Assembly: GCA_964016885.1 (NCBI GenBank)
Contig: OZ024765.1
Coordinates: forward strand, 16,120,001-16,184,000
DNA from: Eledone cirrhosa
Taxonomy: Eukaryota
Length of the DNA stretch: 64,000 bases
Direction: 5' to 3'
Shown: piece after piece, positions 40,676 to 63,659 of the stretch
Layout: every line of letters starts with the position of its first letter
How positions within the stretch are numbered: the stretch's first letter is position 1
Translations under genes and position numbers: made by a program
The notes under the pieces: generated by a model
Seen by the model: only the letters and a program-made list of their open reading frames with translations
Databases searched by the model: none
Told to the model about the DNA's origin: nothing

Positions 40676-41180
40676 CCACCACCACCAACAACAACAACAC
40701 CAGCACCGACAATAACAATAACAAAACCAACACCGACAACAACAACATCACCAACAACAGTATTTCCACAAACACCACCACCAATAACAACAACAACACC
40801 AACACCACCACCGACAACAAGAACATCTCCACCACCACCAACAACAACAACGGCACCAACAACAACAAACCAACACCGCCACCAATAACAACAACAACAA
40901 CAACACCAACACGACCATCGACAAGAACATCACCACCATCAACAACAACAACATCACCACCGACAACAACAACATCACCACCACCAACAACAACAACAAT
41001 AACACCAACACCACCACGAACACACAACAACATCACCAACAACAACAACGATACCACCAACAGTATTTCCACCATCACCACCAGCAATAATAGCAACAAC
41101 AACAACAACACCACCGACAACAACACCATCATCACCAACAACAACAACAATGACAAATAAATACATCACCAACAACAAAA
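40676..41180. repeat. (CAA/CAC)n array
   Basis: Direct reading. Confidence 0.93.
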
Positions 41181-43288: not shown

Positions 43289-43924
43289 ATAATAGAGTAT
43301 ATGTTCCTACACGCACAAGGCGCTTTGGGACACATGTATTGTCCAACAATATACCAATGTAGTTCAATGGCAGGTTAATAAATTAACGAGCCAGAACATA
43401 TATAATGAAAGTTTAGCAAATAAGATAACGTTTCAAAATAAATTTTAAAAAATTAACTTTACTTACTATGGTTACCTTTACCGAATCGGTTTCGAGTCTC
43501 AAAAATAAACGGAGTCCATACGGCATCCGTTGCAAAGATAAACTCTCGTCAGAAGGATCATTTCACTCGGAGAATATAAAATTCCCGAGTTCAAATTACG
43601 AACTGTCGCTATTCAAAATTGTTCCCGAGATGAGAGAAAATGAAGTGGAATCCATTCTTTTAAGTGCCGTGTGTAAAGATAGAAGCAGAGTCAGGGAGGT
43701 CAATCGGCTCCCGCTATAACTAGCAGCAGTCAGAGCGACCAAATTTGTTTCACAACCAAGAGGAGAATAGTAATAATAGAGTATATGTTCCTACAAGCAC
43801 AAAGCGCTAAGGGACACATGTATTGTCCAACCATATGCCAATGTGGTTCAATGGCAGGTTAATAAATGAACGAGCCAGGACATATATAATCAAGATTTAG
43901 CAAATAAGAAAAAGTTTCAAAATA
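43289..43924 (-). mobile_element. Retrozyme-like 1.3-mer: 484-bp monomer with ~150-bp terminal direct repeat and one HHR
   Basis: 43289-43440 repeats at 43773-43924 (offset 484); HHR between the repeats. Confidence 0.78.
43475..43556 (-). ncRNA. Canonical type I HHR motif (family G)
   Basis: CCTT-CTGACGA-GAGTTT...AGACTC-GAAA-CCGATTCGG-TA-AAGG; G10.1-C11.1, true stem III, GUA site. Confidence 0.88.
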
Positions 43925-44261
43925 TAATATAGATCAGTTTTATAAATAAATATTGACATACCCTTAAAGAATGCAACCACTACTGTTGGAAGCTCCAGGA
44001 GCTTCCAACAGTAATGGTTGCATACTTTAAGGGTATGTCAATATTTATTTATAAAACTGTTCTATATTATCTTTTATCTGATGAAAGCACACCATAATTT
44101 AACTTGGTCCCCTTGAAATATGTATAATGAAATAAATATGGTTTTATAAATATAGTTTCCATTTCTTAATATCGTATTTTTACTCCAAATATTTGTTGAG
44201 TGCTTTATATCAGTTATAAAAATATTTGCTTGTTGTATCCCAACAATATAAATAGAAATTT

Positions 44262-44926: not shown

Positions 44927-44995
<69 letters not shown>

Positions 44996-45355
44996 TTATG
45001 ATAATAATAATAAAAGGACGTTTTGTTATGTCGTCATTACCTTTATTGGCTGGTAACGTGCGTTTCGCTATGTGTGAGCTCAAGGTTCGATCCGGCCCAA
45101 CTCTGGAATCAAACGCTTGTCAGACCTCTGACAATCTGTAATTACCACAGCAGAGCTCCTACTAGCTTATTGTACCTTAATTTCCTTGGCCTTGACACAG
45201 CCAAGCACAAGAATAGTAAATATTTGATAGAAAATCTCAAACATTACTGGTAATGGTGGAAATATCATTTCTATAGATTCGTAATTAGATATGAAAAATT
45301 ATTGGAATTATCTGTATTCGATGAGAAAGCATCTGGTTAATGACAGTATTGTGTC

Positions 45356-45421
<66 letters not shown>

Positions 45422-45430
45422 ATATATATA

Positions 45431-46216
45431 TGAGAGACGTAAAATAAGAAAATTATGAAATTAACTTACTTACTAAAATTTCACTCTCAACTAATTAGTT
45501 ACTGAAATGGAATAAATATACTTTCCGAAGAAAATATACAGAAGCATTTCGTCGTCAGGGAAGACTATTCTCAGCTAAGTATCCAGGCAAAGCGTGGACT
45601 CTGGAAACTTATACAAAAATAATTCACTGGTTAGAAAATAGCAAAGCGTGGACTGAATTCCTAGCCATTGAGAAAATCACTGCCTCTGCGTCGGTGGCAA
45701 ATTCAAAAAGAATCAATCAAGTGACATCGAGGTCAATCAGTGGAAAGTGGTTTGTTAATAAGACAGCGGCCTGCCTGCCACCATAGCAGCAGTCTTGGCC
45801 AATATTGCTCGACAAATAATTTGGAGATAATTATAAAGAATTAATATCTAGTAACATATATATACATACAGATGCCTATCAATGCTAGCAAATATATAGG
45901 TGTTGTCTTAGTAACTTTGTGGTTCAATGCATGGGGTTGCAGAACAATAATATGAGAGACGTAAAACAAGAAAATTATAAAATTAACTTACTTACTAAAA
46001 TTTCACTCCCAACTAATTAGTTTCTGAAATGGAATAAATATACTTTCCGAAGAAAATATCGCAGAAGCATTTCGTCGTCAGGGAAGACTATTCTCAGCTA
46101 AGTATCCAGGCAAAGCGTGGACTCTGGAAACTTATACAAAAATAATTCAGTGGATAGAAAATAGCAAAGCGTGGACTGAATTTCTAGCCATTGAGAAAAT
46201 CACTTCCTCTGCGTCG
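45431..46216 (-). mobile_element. Retrozyme-like 1.5-mer: 522-bp monomer, 263-bp direct repeats each carrying an HHR (duplicate at ~47214-47999)
   Basis: 45431-45693 repeats at 45953-46216; flanked by (TA)n. Confidence 0.8.
46006..46086 (-). ncRNA. Type I HHR motif (family H); duplicate at 47789-47869; GAAA>GTAA mutant copies at 45484-45563 and 47267-47346
   Basis: CTTCC-CTGACGA-C[GAAATG...C(TTCG)G...CATTTC]A-GAAA-CTAATTAG-TT-GGGAG. Confidence 0.75.
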
Positions 46217-46333
46217 ATATATATATTAATAATAAGATTCTATTCGTTTGCATTTATGCAAATAATCGTCATTTTTAAAGCCATGTCAGTAGAATGATCC
46301 GTTCATTCTTGCTCTTGTGTTGCCATGTAAACA

Positions 46334-46383
46334 GAACTGCACACACTAATGTTTCTAGGTATTACCCTTCATCAGTACAGTTC
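46334..46383 (-). ncRNA. Degenerate type I HHR motif (family I; duplicate at 48117-48166)
   Basis: GAACTGTA-CTGATGA-AGGGTAATACCTA-GAAA-CATTAGTG-TG-TGCAGTTC; 8-bp stem I, but the cleavage triplet is GUG (H=G, normally not cleaved). Confidence 0.6.
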
Positions 46384-46410
46384 ACTAGTCAGAGCTAGTG
46401 AAAATATATG

Positions 46411-46613
<203 letters not shown>

Positions 46614-46634
46614 ATATATATATATATATATATA

Positions 46635-46798
<164 letters not shown>

Positions 46799-47158
46799 TT
46801 ATGATAATAATAATAAAAGGACGTTTTGTTATGTCGTCATTACCTTTATTGGCTGGTAACGTGCGTTTCGCTATGTGTGAGCTCAAGGTCCGATCCGGCC
46901 CAACTCTGGAATCAAACGCTTGTCAGACCTCTGACAATCTGTAATTACCACAGCAGAGCTCCTACTAGCTTATTGTACCTTAATTTCCTTGGCCTTGACA
47001 CAGCCAAGCACAAGAATAGTAAATATTTGATAGAAAATCTCAAACATTACTGGTAATGGTGGAAATATCATTTCTATAGATTCGTAATTAGATATGAAAA
47101 ATTATTGGAATTATCTGTATTCGATGAGAAAGCATCTGGTTAATGACAGTATTGTGTC

Positions 47159-47206
<48 letters not shown>

Positions 47207-48193
47207 ATATATATGAGAGACGTAAAATAAGAAAATTATGAAATTAACTTACTTACTAAAATTTCACTCTCAACTAATTAGTTACTGAAATGGAATAAAT
47301 ATACTTTCCGAAGAAAATATACAGAAGCATTTCGTCGTCAGGGAAGACTATTCTCAGCTAAGTATCCAGGCAAAGCGTGGACTCTGGAAACTTATACAAA
47401 AATAATTCACTGGTTAGAAAATAGCAAAGCGTGGACTGAATTCCTAGCCATTGAGAAAATCACTGCCTCTGCGTCGGTGGCAAATTCAAAAAGAATCAAT
47501 CAAGTGACATCGAGGTCAATCAGTGGAAAGTGGTTTGTTAATAAGACAGCGGCCTGCCTGCCACCATAGCAGCAGTCTTGGCCAATATTGCTCGACAAAT
47601 AATTTGGAGATAATTATAAAGAATTAATATCTAGTAACATATATATACATACAGATGCCTATCAATGCTAGCAAATATATAGGTGTTGTCTTAGTAACTT
47701 TGTGGTTCAATGCATGGGGTTGCAGAACAATAATATGAGAGACGTAAAACAAGAAAATTATAAAATTAACTTACTTACTAAAATTTCACTCCCAACTAAT
47801 TAGTTTCTGAAATGGAATAAATATACTTTCCGAAGAAAATATCGCAGAAGCATTTCGTCGTCAGGGAAGACTATTCTCAGCTAAGTATCCAGGCAAAGCG
47901 TGGACTCTGGAAACTTATACAAAAATAATTCAGTGGATAGAAAATAGCAAAGCGTGGACTGAATTTCTAGCCATTGAGAAAATCACTTCCTCTGCGTCGA
48001 TATATATATTAATAATAAGATTCTATTCGTTTGCATTTATGCAAATAATCGTCATTTTTAAAGCCATGTCAGTAGAATGATCCGTTCATTCTTGCTCTTG
48101 TGTTGCCATGTAAACAGAACTGCACACACTAATGTTTCTAGGTATTACCCTTCATCAGTACAGTTCACTAGTCAGAGCTAGTGAAAATATATG

Positions 48194-48230
<37 letters not shown>

Positions 48231-60949: not shown

Positions 60950-61855
60950 TAAACTTTATTGATCCCGTAAGGATGAACAGTAAAGCTAACCTCAGTAAGA
61001 TGGCAAATCTAAATAATAATTGTTTCTATTTTTGGTACAATGCCAGCAAATACCCAGTACATTACTGGTACTTTGTTTTATCGACCCCGTAAGGATGAAA
61101 TGCAAAGTTAACCTCGGCGGGATTTGAACTCAGATCGTAAAAGGACATAACTATGTTGGAAAGCATGTCCGACCCTCTACCAATTCTGCCAAATAATAAT
61201 AATAATAACAATAACTGTTTCTACTATAGGCACAAGGCCCGCAATTTGGCTGCAGGGTAAAGTTGATTGAATCGACCCCAGTGCGTTACTGGTACCTTAT
61301 TTTCGCGACCCCGTAAGCGTGAAAGGCGAAGCTAAACTCACATGGATTTGAACTCATAACGTAAAGCGATATAGTTATATGCCGCAATGTATAGCGTCTG
61401 ACGCTCTACCAATACTGCCAGTCTATCGCCTTATAATAATAATAATAGTAATAATAATTGTCTCTACTTTAGGCACAAGGCCAGCAAATGCCCAGTACAT
61501 TACTGGTACTTTATTTTATCGACCCTGTAAGGATGAAAGGCAAAGTTAACCTCGGCGGGATTTGAACTCAGAATGACAAGGGCCGTAACTCTATGCGTCA
61601 AATCATGGTGTCCGACCCTATAATAATAATAATAATAATGGTTTCAAATTTAGTCACAAGTCCAGCAACCTTAGGGGAGGGGAAAGTCGATTAAATTGAC
61701 ACCAGTACATTACTGCTATTTTAATTAAGGATGGAAGGCAAAGTTAACCTCGGCGGGATTTGTTCTGAGTTCAAATACTGCCGAAGTTAGCTTCACCTGC
61801 CATCCTCAAGGGGTTGATAAAATAAGGCACTGGTGATGCACCGCGGTCGATTTAA
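60950..61855 (-). mobile_element. Cluster of ~5 minus-strand tRNA-SINEs ending in one inverted plus-strand fragment
   Basis: Repeated SINE bodies separated by (AAT)n; orientation flips at ~61762. Confidence 0.9.
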
Positions 61856-63078: not shown

Positions 63079-63351
63079 GTTGCGAGGTAAATTAGGCTTA
63101 GAAAAGGAATGAGAATAAGAATAAAGCAAGAACAGGGGTTGTCCTTTTCCTCATCAGTTGTCTACTGGTGGTTTCGGATATTTCAATGCTTTAAAGACAA
63201 TATATCTACCCCCATACATACATACACGTATGTATAACCAAATGAAAGTACATATGTATATACAGAGAGAGAAAGAGCCATATATTGTTTAAGGAAGACA
63301 GTACATTATAGATTATGTATTGGGTATATATAATATACTCTCCCATTATAT

Positions 63352-63404
<53 letters not shown>

Positions 63405-63406
<2 letters not shown>

Positions 63407-63589
63407 GTTTCTACTTTAGGCACAAGGCCAGCAATTAACCAGTGCATTACTGGTACTTTATTTTATCGACCCCGTAAGGATGAAAGGCAAAGTCAACCTC
63501 GGCGGGATTTGAACTCAGATCGTAAAGGGACGTAACTATGCTGGAAAGCATGGCGTCCGACACTCTACCGATACTGCCAATCCACCGCA
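63405..63589 (-). mobile_element. Full-length tRNA-SINE (short variant)
   Basis: A box TGGCAGTATCGG, B box GAGTTCAAATCCC; close match to 22238-22422. Confidence 0.93.
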
Positions 63590-63659
63590 TATATAATATA
63601 TATATATATATATATATAATATATATATATATATGATATATATATAATATATATATATA

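What the first reader, a model, noticed from the sequence alone, without database searches (positions are those of the whole stretch)
45431..46216. 522-nt monomer delimited by two tandem hammerheads with a C(UUCG)G-capped stem II
Seen: 263-bp direct repeats 522 bp apart, each with an HHR at the same position, so cleavage at both sites would release a ~522-nt unit. Stem II ends in a C(UUCG)G tetraloop hairpin and stem III is the palindrome ACTAATTAGT. One HHR has GAAA>GTAA. Established: this is retrozyme architecture and UUCG is an extra-stable RNA tetraloop. Inference: a second, independent retrozyme-like family.
Basis: partly seen in the sequence, partly recalled or inferred. Interest (0 to 1): 0.8.

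Follow-up and report, generated by a model that had tools for sequence, protein, structure and literature searches.

The report
Penelope-mobilised hammerhead retrozyme, 522-nt unit
This is one damaged copy of a non-coding 522-base repeat that occurs thousands of times in this animal genome; each unit carries a conserved hammerhead-ribozyme fold and the repeat is likely copied into TA microsatellites by Penelope-like retrotransposon enzymes, so it is a new member of a known kind of selfish RNA.

Summary
There are 263/264-bp repeats 522 bp apart, each with a minus-strand type I hammerhead fold; the 3' one is mutated (GUAA, plus a stem I mismatch). The repeats are not LTRs: this is 1.5 turns of a head-to-tail 522-nt unit. 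An 18-mer of its ribozyme occurs 12,847 times in the genome. Subfamilies 67-91% alike keep stems I and II by compensatory changes. The UUCG loop is not conserved (0 of 49 in a sister subfamily). Insertions carry Penelope-like (PLE) hallmarks: variable 5' truncation, 5'-to-5' inversions (21 of 63 clusters), and 3' ends at two fixed sites (74 of 77) joined to (TA)n (72 of 77). Units encode no protein. Four loci join the repeat directly to coding PLE families, which points to shared reverse transcription. Best reading: an animal non-LTR retrozyme, i.e. a non-autonomous PLE, with a PLE-type ribozyme that likely works as a dimer. The window copy probably cannot release a monomer. Cleavage, expression and circular RNA are untested. 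An unusual core (extra base on both sides of stem II, U17) leaves activity open. It is a new member of a known kind, useful for testing how retrozymes move.

The parts
45431..46216 (-). One insertion of the repeat family: 1.5 head-to-tail units (786 bp), 5'-truncated at 46216, 3' end at the family's first preferred site
45953..46216 (-). 5' direct repeat (264 bp); not an LTR but the part of the unit that is present twice
45431..45693 (-). 3' direct repeat (263 bp)
46005..46087 (-). 5' type I hammerhead, core intact: stem I, CUGACGA 46081-46075, extra C 46074, stem II 46073-46068/46031-46026, extra A 46025, GAAA 46024-46021, palindromic stem III 46021-46012, U17 46011
46040..46059 (-). Distal hairpin of stem II capped by C(UUCG)G (46052-46047); stem conserved by covariation, loop not conserved
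45483..45564 (-). 3' hammerhead, damaged: GUAA for GAAA (45501) and a C.A mismatch in stem I (45487)
45489..46010 (-). Predicted 522-nt monomer between the two cleavage sites (not shown to be made)
   Evidence: coordinates; fold
45357..45431 (.). (TA)n target joined to the 3' end through a short TA-like microhomology
45827..45836 (-). Second preferred 3'-end site of the family (TA-like stretch, about 180 nt after the cleavage site); read through in this copy
45712..45740 (-). E-box and CCAAT-like motifs upstream of the ribozyme; possible internal promoter (inferred; motif names recalled; E-box mutated at 45720 in this copy)
   Evidence: sequence; similar motifs in coding PLE 3' UTRs
46217..46226 (.). 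Short (TA)n at the 5' junction
47214..47999 (-). Second copy of the same insertion inside a 1783-bp tandem duplication (same lesions)

Best explanation
This is a copy of a non-coding, head-to-tail 522-nt repeat with one hammerhead fold per unit that is likely an animal non-LTR retrozyme moved by Penelope-like (PLE) enzymes. Shown: tandem units, no ORF, a structure-conserved type I hammerhead, 3' ends fixed at two TA-like sites and joined to (TA)n, variable 5' truncation, 5'-to-5' inversions, and four direct junctions with coding PLE families. Inferred cycle: (1) an upstream unit likely promotes transcription of a multimer; (2) two ribozymes would pair through the stem III palindrome and cut as a double hammerhead after GUU; (3) the monomer would be ligated into a circle; (4) a PLE GIY-YIG endonuclease would cut (TA)n, and the cut DNA would prime the PLE reverse transcriptase at one of two internal TA-like sites; (5) copying would run on past the cleavage site for up to several units, and priming from both sides of the break would give the inverted arm. 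Confidence: about 0.9 for PLE-type retroposition, 0.6 for ribozyme activity, 0.5 for a circular rather than uncut linear template.
For: Tandem, permuted copies in the 60 loci. 12,847 and 9,991 exact matches of two motifs, 0 for controls. Stem II second pair occurs as A-U 87, U-A 55, C-G 11, G-C 6 of 162. 95% of cells paired against 35-48% for slid controls, 8 of 19 pairs with two-sided change; RNAalifold finds the same junction. In the first 100 anchor hits, 74 of 77 3' ends are at two sites, 72 of 77 meet (TA)n, and 21 of 63 clusters are inverted, all 21 5'-to-5'. Longest ATG ORF is 27-86 aa in 49 units. Coding RT+GIY-YIG PLEs in this genome end in (TA)n in the same way. Direct junctions with 3-5 nt microhomology to three coding PLE families in L224, L026, L112, L118. 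Double hammerhead -38.4 kcal/mol against -26.4 for two monomers. Five natural units fold as circles at z -3.1 to -6.4. 88 of 100 anchored segments run through the cleavage site. Tandem units of one locus differ no more (1.35%) than inverted arms (1.5%), against 2.5% between loci. PLE hallmarks as in PMC8557442 and PMC4209133.
Against: No cleavage, transcript or circle was observed. The core departs from the consensus: an extra A before GAAA, and U17, which can pair with A14 (predicted probability 0.48); the dimer's minimum-energy fold (-43.8) is not the active one. Eight of nine Xenopus retrozyme dimers did not cleave in vitro (bioRxiv 2026.07.22.740005). No 5' junction lies at the cleavage site itself: none from -8 to +3 among 162 junctions. 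No coding PLE sharing this unit's 3' sequence was found in 50 GIY-YIG loci or in the P17 family. The four chimeras could partly be nested insertions or repair joins. Two of five covariation measures were not above shuffles (128/500 and 358/500), and stem I covariation partly reflects a one-base indel on both strands.
Confidence: 0.82

Rival explanations
1. Non-autonomous PLE copied from uncut linear multimeric RNA. The hammerhead is a slow or non-catalytic structural element (for example a protein-binding or dimerisation signal) and no circle is needed.
For: Most segments run through the cleavage site (88 of 100) and no 5' junction falls at +1. The core has U17 and extra bases. PLE hammerheads have low in vitro activity (PMC4209133), and Naiad and most Chlamys PLEs thrive without canonical ones (PMC8557442).
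Against: CUGANGA, GAAA and all three stems are kept across subfamilies about 75% alike. Whole units fold well as circles. Tandem units are no more divergent than inverted arms. GUU is listed among cleavable triplets (PMC3138052). This rival shares the mobility mechanism with the best explanation and differs only in the RNA step.
Confidence: 0.3
2. The unit is the pseudo-LTR of a coding PLE, and the copies are its 5'-truncated 3' ends.
For: The ribozyme has PLE-type traits (base between 9 and 10.1, G10.1-C11.1, long stem II, palindromic stem III), and coding PLEs here have the same promoter-ribozyme-tail layout. Only 50 loci from 10,596 GIY-YIG candidates were examined.
Against: Upstream of a unit lies another unit, an inverted arm, (TA)n or unrelated DNA. 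tblastn with 19 PLE ORFs hit 13 of 194 fetched loci (some overlapping), never the unit itself, and no hit ran into the unit as its own 3' UTR. A remote pLTR origin remains likely.
Confidence: 0.06
3. A satellite that spreads by DNA-level tandem amplification and recombination.
For: One array of at least 19 units over 10 kb (L245). The window block itself is tandemly duplicated. The 2026 preprint proposes local amplification by unequal crossover.
Against: Most copies are dispersed and short, with fixed 3' ends, random 5' ends and oriented inversions; RNA structure is under selection. DNA amplification may explain only the rare long arrays.
Confidence: 0.03

Closest known systems
Animal non-LTR retrozymes (Cervera & de la Pena 2020, PMC7229834; Li, Clavereau & Pollet, bioRxiv 10.64898/2026.07.22.740005)
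   Same: Non-coding tandem repeats, one type I hammerhead per unit, low GC (35.6%), no LTR, thousands of copies, self-paired circular fold, PLEs in the same genome.
   Different: Units of 515-571 nt exceed the 170-400 nt of the 2020 paper but lie within the 51-972 bp of the preprint. The ribozyme is of the PLE type, with a long stem II, rather than the canonical type. Expression and circles are unproven here. The parts of those papers I read do not describe fixed (TA)n-primed 3' ends, 5' inversions or chimeras with coding PLEs.
Non-autonomous Penelope-like elements such as MRC1 of Chlamydomonas (Craig et al. 2021, PMC8557442)
   Same: Pseudo-LTRs from partial tandems, multicopy head-to-tail insertions, 5' truncation, inverted 5' arms, microsatellite targeting, easily mistaken for an LTR element.
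   Different: Chlamys elements mostly lack canonical hammerheads and target (CA)n or (C)n; their non-autonomous forms generally share 3' sequence with an autonomous partner, which was not found here.
Minimal hammerheads of metazoan PLEs (Cervera & de la Pena 2014, PMC4209133)
   Same: Type I, short stem I, long stem II, unpaired base between positions 9 and 10.1, G10.1-C11.1, palindromic stem III suited to dimers.
   Different: A second extra base between 11.1 and G12, fixed U17, a 10-nt palindrome (12 with A14/U17), and a stem II extended by an internal loop and hairpin.
Plant LTR retrozymes (as described in PMC7229834 and PMC6765202)
   Same: Two hammerheads flanking a non-coding monomer of similar size.
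   Different: Those have type III ribozymes, true LTRs, PBS/PPT and 4-bp target duplications and rely on Gypsy elements; here the ribozyme is type I and the repeats are a permutation overlap.

Membership tests
Animal non-LTR retrozyme | Head-to-tail repeats with a type I hammerhead in each unit | tested here: met
   window copy has one intact and one damaged motif
Animal non-LTR retrozyme | No protein coding | tested here: met
   longest ATG ORF 27-86 aa in 49 units; no tblastn hit of 19 PLE ORFs on the element
Animal non-LTR retrozyme | No LTRs | tested here: met
   5' starts vary across the whole unit; repeats are overlap of a tandem. PBS and PPT were not searched for separately
Animal non-LTR retrozyme | Small, low-GC unit | tested here: met
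   GC 35.6%; 515-571 nt in 49 units: above the 2020 range, inside the 2026 range
Animal non-LTR retrozyme | Highly self-paired circular fold | tested here: met
   5 of 49 natural units folded as circles: 59-64% paired, z -3.1 to -6.4 against 25 shuffles each; the aged window unit folded linear gives z -1.44
Animal non-LTR retrozyme | Self-cleavage of the transcript | not testable with these tools
   needs in vitro assay; core variants leave it open
Animal non-LTR retrozyme | Expressed as linear and circular monomer RNA | not testable with these tools
   needs RNA data or a northern blot
Animal non-LTR retrozyme | Target-site duplication longer than 4 bp when present | tested here: inconclusive
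   junctions lie in (TA)n, which hides duplications
EN+ Penelope-like element (autonomous) | ORF with RT and GIY-YIG endonuclease | tested here: not met
Penelope-like mobility (non-autonomous PLE) | Partial tandems with 5' truncation | tested here: met
Penelope-like mobility (non-autonomous PLE) | Inverted 5'-truncated arm at the 5' end | tested here: met
   21 of 63 clusters, all 5'-to-5'
Penelope-like mobility (non-autonomous PLE) | Microsatellite insertion bias | tested here: met
   72 of 77 3' ends meet (TA)n
Penelope-like mobility (non-autonomous PLE) | 3' sequence shared with an autonomous partner | tested here: inconclusive
   none in 50 GIY-YIG loci of 10,596 candidates; four direct junctions with three coding families instead
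PLE minimal hammerhead | Base between 9 and 10.1, G10.1-C11.1, palindromic stem III | tested here: met
   C at 9a in 87 of 88 (A) and 46 of 49 (B); G-C in 155 of 162; palindrome in 85 of 88, partly by the choice of anchor
Consensus hammerhead core | G12 directly follows C11.1 | tested here: not met
   an extra A lies between them in 88 of 88 (A) and 49 of 49 (B); equally readable as a C.A mismatch at 10.1-11.1; a U.U mismatch there is tolerated (PMC3088659)
Plant LTR retrozyme | Type III hammerhead inside true LTRs | tested here: not met
   type I topology; no LTR

The most novel reading that the evidence does not exclude
The family is a genomic record of the retrozyme life cycle. A dimer-only hammerhead variant (extra base on both sides of stem II, GUU site, 10-nt palindrome) makes ~520-570-nt circles that have no dedicated partner. 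Reverse transcriptases of several PLE families prime them at two internal TA-like sites, roll round the circle, and switch between retrozyme and PLE RNAs within one insertion. That would turn the proposed PLE-retrozyme link into a mechanism countable at ~13,000 junctions.
Probability: 0.3. Interest if true: 0.62.

Novelty: new member of a known kind. Interest (0 to 1): 0.38.

Why it matters
Animal retrozymes are known, but how they are mobilised is still argued from co-occurrence and sequence likeness (PMC7229834 discussion passage; 2026 preprint). This family offers thousands of fairly young insertions whose ends show priming sites, inversions and chimeras with coding PLEs, so the PLE model and the circular-template idea can be tested by counting junctions. 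It also supplies a naturally covarying hammerhead variant whose activity is unknown. The window copy itself is an aged, probably inactive member and is not special.

Tried and rejected
Rfam: the whole-window scan was swamped by microsatellite-driven miRNA hits, of which only the best 150 of 412 were listed; 0 hits in 45420-46420. Sequencing runs: no RNA holder listed; contigs of three runs of unknown kind from one sample were laid on the element and say nothing on expression. UUCG as a defining trait: rejected. LTR reading of the repeats: rejected. Search for an autonomous partner sharing the 3' end: negative in 50 GIY-YIG loci and the P17 family; this covers a small part of the genome's PLEs. 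A peak of 5' ends at the cleavage site: not found. A cluster at +4 to +12 (14 of 81 junctions between -100 and +36; pointwise p 0.0008, scan-corrected p 0.053) and a gap at -8 to +3 are only suggestive, and AT-rich fold-back microhomology confounds them. The first junction run mixed in wrongly oriented references and was replaced. The first within/between-locus comparison was dominated by the long array L245 and was redone without it (48 loci). Locus-private alleles did not separate circular from linear templates (inverted arms: 8 shared, 95 unshared). Lunse et al. on PLE hammerhead dimers is not held; only its title was seen in a reference list. No rate for GUU sites or for an extra base after C11.1 was found (searches; passages). 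Earlier-findings look-ups by place and by sequence were empty.

Full report
Observation. The window holds direct repeats at 45431-45693 and 45953-46216, 522 bp apart, with 9 substitutions and one indel. On the minus strand each carries CUGACGA, a long stem II ending in a C(UUCG)G hairpin, GAAA (GUAA in the 3' copy), the palindrome ACUAAUUAGU and a short stem I. The intact motif folds as a type I three-way junction. The predicted cleavage sites, after 46011 and 45489, are 522 nt apart. Rfam has no hit in the region and the motif alone is not more stable than shuffles (z -0.17). The block 44991-46420 is repeated at 46794-48203 with one substitution outside the microsatellite.

A large family. 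The genome is 3.0 Gb; I did not identify the organism (a cephalopod is my untested guess from recalled genome features). DNA searches gave 2,032 and 1,623 first-look candidates, with top copies 95-98% identical. An 18-mer spanning GAAA to the cleavage site has 12,847 exact matches and a downstream 20-mer 9,991; reversed controls give 0. Subfamilies are 67-91% identical to the window unit, with units of 515-571 nt among 49 complete ones. One array has at least 19 units.

Architecture. Copies are head-to-tail arrays with 5' ends spread over the unit, so the window's repeats are the overlap of 1.5 units, not LTRs. In the first 100 hits of the 20-mer on contig C1, 23 ran on beyond 200 nt and 77 ended: 36 at a site about 60 nt after the cleavage site, 38 at about 180 nt, 3 elsewhere; 72 of the 77 meet (TA)n. 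Of 63 clusters, 21 have arms in both orientations, all 21 joined 5'-to-5'. These are the PLE traits listed in PMC8557442: partial tandems, inverted 5' arms, microsatellite bias (passages; section 10).

Ribozyme. Among 165 contexts (162 scored; overlapping loci may count a few twice), the core is kept: GAAA in 85 of 88 subfamily A and 48 of 49 subfamily B instances; the two GUAA cases are the window copy and its duplicate. Stem II's second pair occurs as A-U 87, U-A 55, C-G 11, G-C 6, other 3. On 16 aligned copies, hand-picked as full-length from the window and the 30 loci, 95% of cells pair against 35-48% in slid controls; three measures beat all 500 shuffles and two did not. Those loci were selected by a pattern covering stem III, so its invariance there is no evidence. 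RNAalifold recovers the junction. UUCG is present in 75 of 88 A, 0 of 49 B and 3 of 24 pattern-picked instances. The motif fits the PLE minimal-hammerhead profile of PMC4209133 (parts 1-2 of 4 read). It differs by an extra A before GAAA and by U17 (88 of 88 A, 48 of 49 B). One coding PLE family here has the same kind of variant, with U on both sides of stem II and U17. A double hammerhead is favoured over two monomers (-38.4 against -26.4 kcal/mol), but the lowest-energy dimer (-43.8) pairs A14 with U17 and is not the active form. In a dimer each enzyme half cuts the other unit (inferred from the strand order), so the window copy, with GUAA and a stem I mismatch in its 3' motif, is impaired at both sites.

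Coding or not. The longest ATG ORF is 27-86 aa in 49 units. A GIY-YIG search gave 10,596 candidates. Of 11 ORFs scanned, 8 had RT plus GIY-YIG hits, 2 RT only and 1 GIY-YIG only. tblastn with 19 such ORFs hit 8 of 90, 3 of 30 and 2 of 74 family loci, and never the element. No coding family examined shares the unit's sequence. They do share its layout: E-box/CCAAT-like motifs, a hammerhead, an AT-rich tail, and 3' ends at TA-like sites joined to (TA)n. The label Neptune-type for the L091 family rests on its linker cysteine motif and is recalled, in line.

Link to PLE enzymes. Among 194 loci (some overlapping), 16 have a coding-PLE segment within 40 nt of the repeat; 12 of these meet across (TA)n or are repeat noise, and four join directly. 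L224 runs retrozyme into the 5'-truncated ORF of a very young PLE family (copies 99-100% identical, 1,003 candidates; weak RT and GIY-YIG hits below Pfam cut-offs) at the second priming site, with about 4 nt of microhomology. L026 joins the same family. L112 is a 5'-to-5' inversion with one PLE arm and one retrozyme arm, and L118 joins a third family. Template switching during one insertion is the simplest reading; nested insertion is not excluded for every case.

Template. 88 of 100 anchored segments run through the cleavage site, so cut linear monomers are not the usual template unless the enzyme jumps ends. No 5' junction lies from -8 to +3; a cluster at +4 to +12 is borderline. Tandem units differ by 1.35%, inverted arms by 1.5%, loci by 2.5%. 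Five natural units fold as circles at z -3.1 to -6.4. This fits a circle but does not exclude uncut multimers.

Comparison. PMC7229834 (passages; section 14) defines animal non-LTR retrozymes and calls PLEs a strong candidate for their mobilisation. The 2026 preprint (parts 1-3 of 5) gives 51-972 bp, links them to PLE pLTRs, and saw cleavage in 1 of 9 dimers. Also seen as passages: PMC3088659, PMC6765202, PMC3138052, PMC1636495. Searches listed no paper that names this family; the library is partial and the organism unknown, so this is weak. An earlier AI finding in another genome (e1-7810660) describes the same TA-targeted tandem mobility; it is a lead, not support.

Verdict. Real, structurally conserved and abundant; a new member of the non-LTR retrozyme / non-autonomous PLE kind. 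Interest 0.38, for the junction evidence on mobilisation and the untested core variant.

Noticed in passing
window 46335-46385 (-), duplicated near 48158: A hammerhead of another family with an 8-bp stem I and extra bases at both ends of stem II; position 17 is G here but C in a copy in L071. It lies in a high-copy repeat.
   Followed up: partly
window 43289-43931 (-): A second retrozyme-like partial tandem, period 484 nt, with a consensus-core hammerhead at 43552. It shares the AT-rich stretch after the ribozyme and short upstream motifs with this family.
   Followed up: partly
window 1172/1339, 23466/23598, 29753/29814, 44078/44497, 48322, 29458, 2919, 38084, 48543, 63989: Many more hammerhead-like cores of several families, four as inverted pairs; the window is dense in PLE-type non-coding elements.
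   Followed up: no
window 44991-46420 and 46794-48203: 1783-bp tandem duplication with one substitution outside the microsatellite: very recent, or an assembly artefact.
   Followed up: partly
L245 (G000:C9:18424000-18433999): Satellite-like array of at least 19 units of this family that fills the 10 kb fetched.
   Followed up: partly
L091, L092, L096, L098, L099, L102: Young coding PLE family (938-aa frame in L091, about 97% protein identity) whose hammerhead-like motif seems to have the U3-A8 core swap and whose 3' end falls just before the ORF start of the next unit.
   Followed up: partly
L246-L265, L017, L224: Very young PLE family, copies 99-100% identical, open frame of at least 994 codons in L252; it was missed among the top GIY-YIG hits.
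   Followed up: partly
L092:5700/6159 and L101:7068/7579: Further tandem hammerhead families with periods 459 and 511 nt.
   Followed up: no
window 45985-45996 (-): A splice-donor-like GTAAGT follows the ribozyme in all subfamilies and in the 484-nt family; PLEs carry introns in this region. Untested.
   Followed up: no
window 46110-46122 and 46164-46176: A 13-mer is present twice, 54 nt apart, upstream of the ribozyme in each unit.
   Followed up: no
window 22100-22450, 25000-25650, 30300-31050, 39300-39460, 40040-40680, 60950-61760, 63350-63630: Another repeated family with partial tandems and inversions, spread over the window.
   Followed up: no
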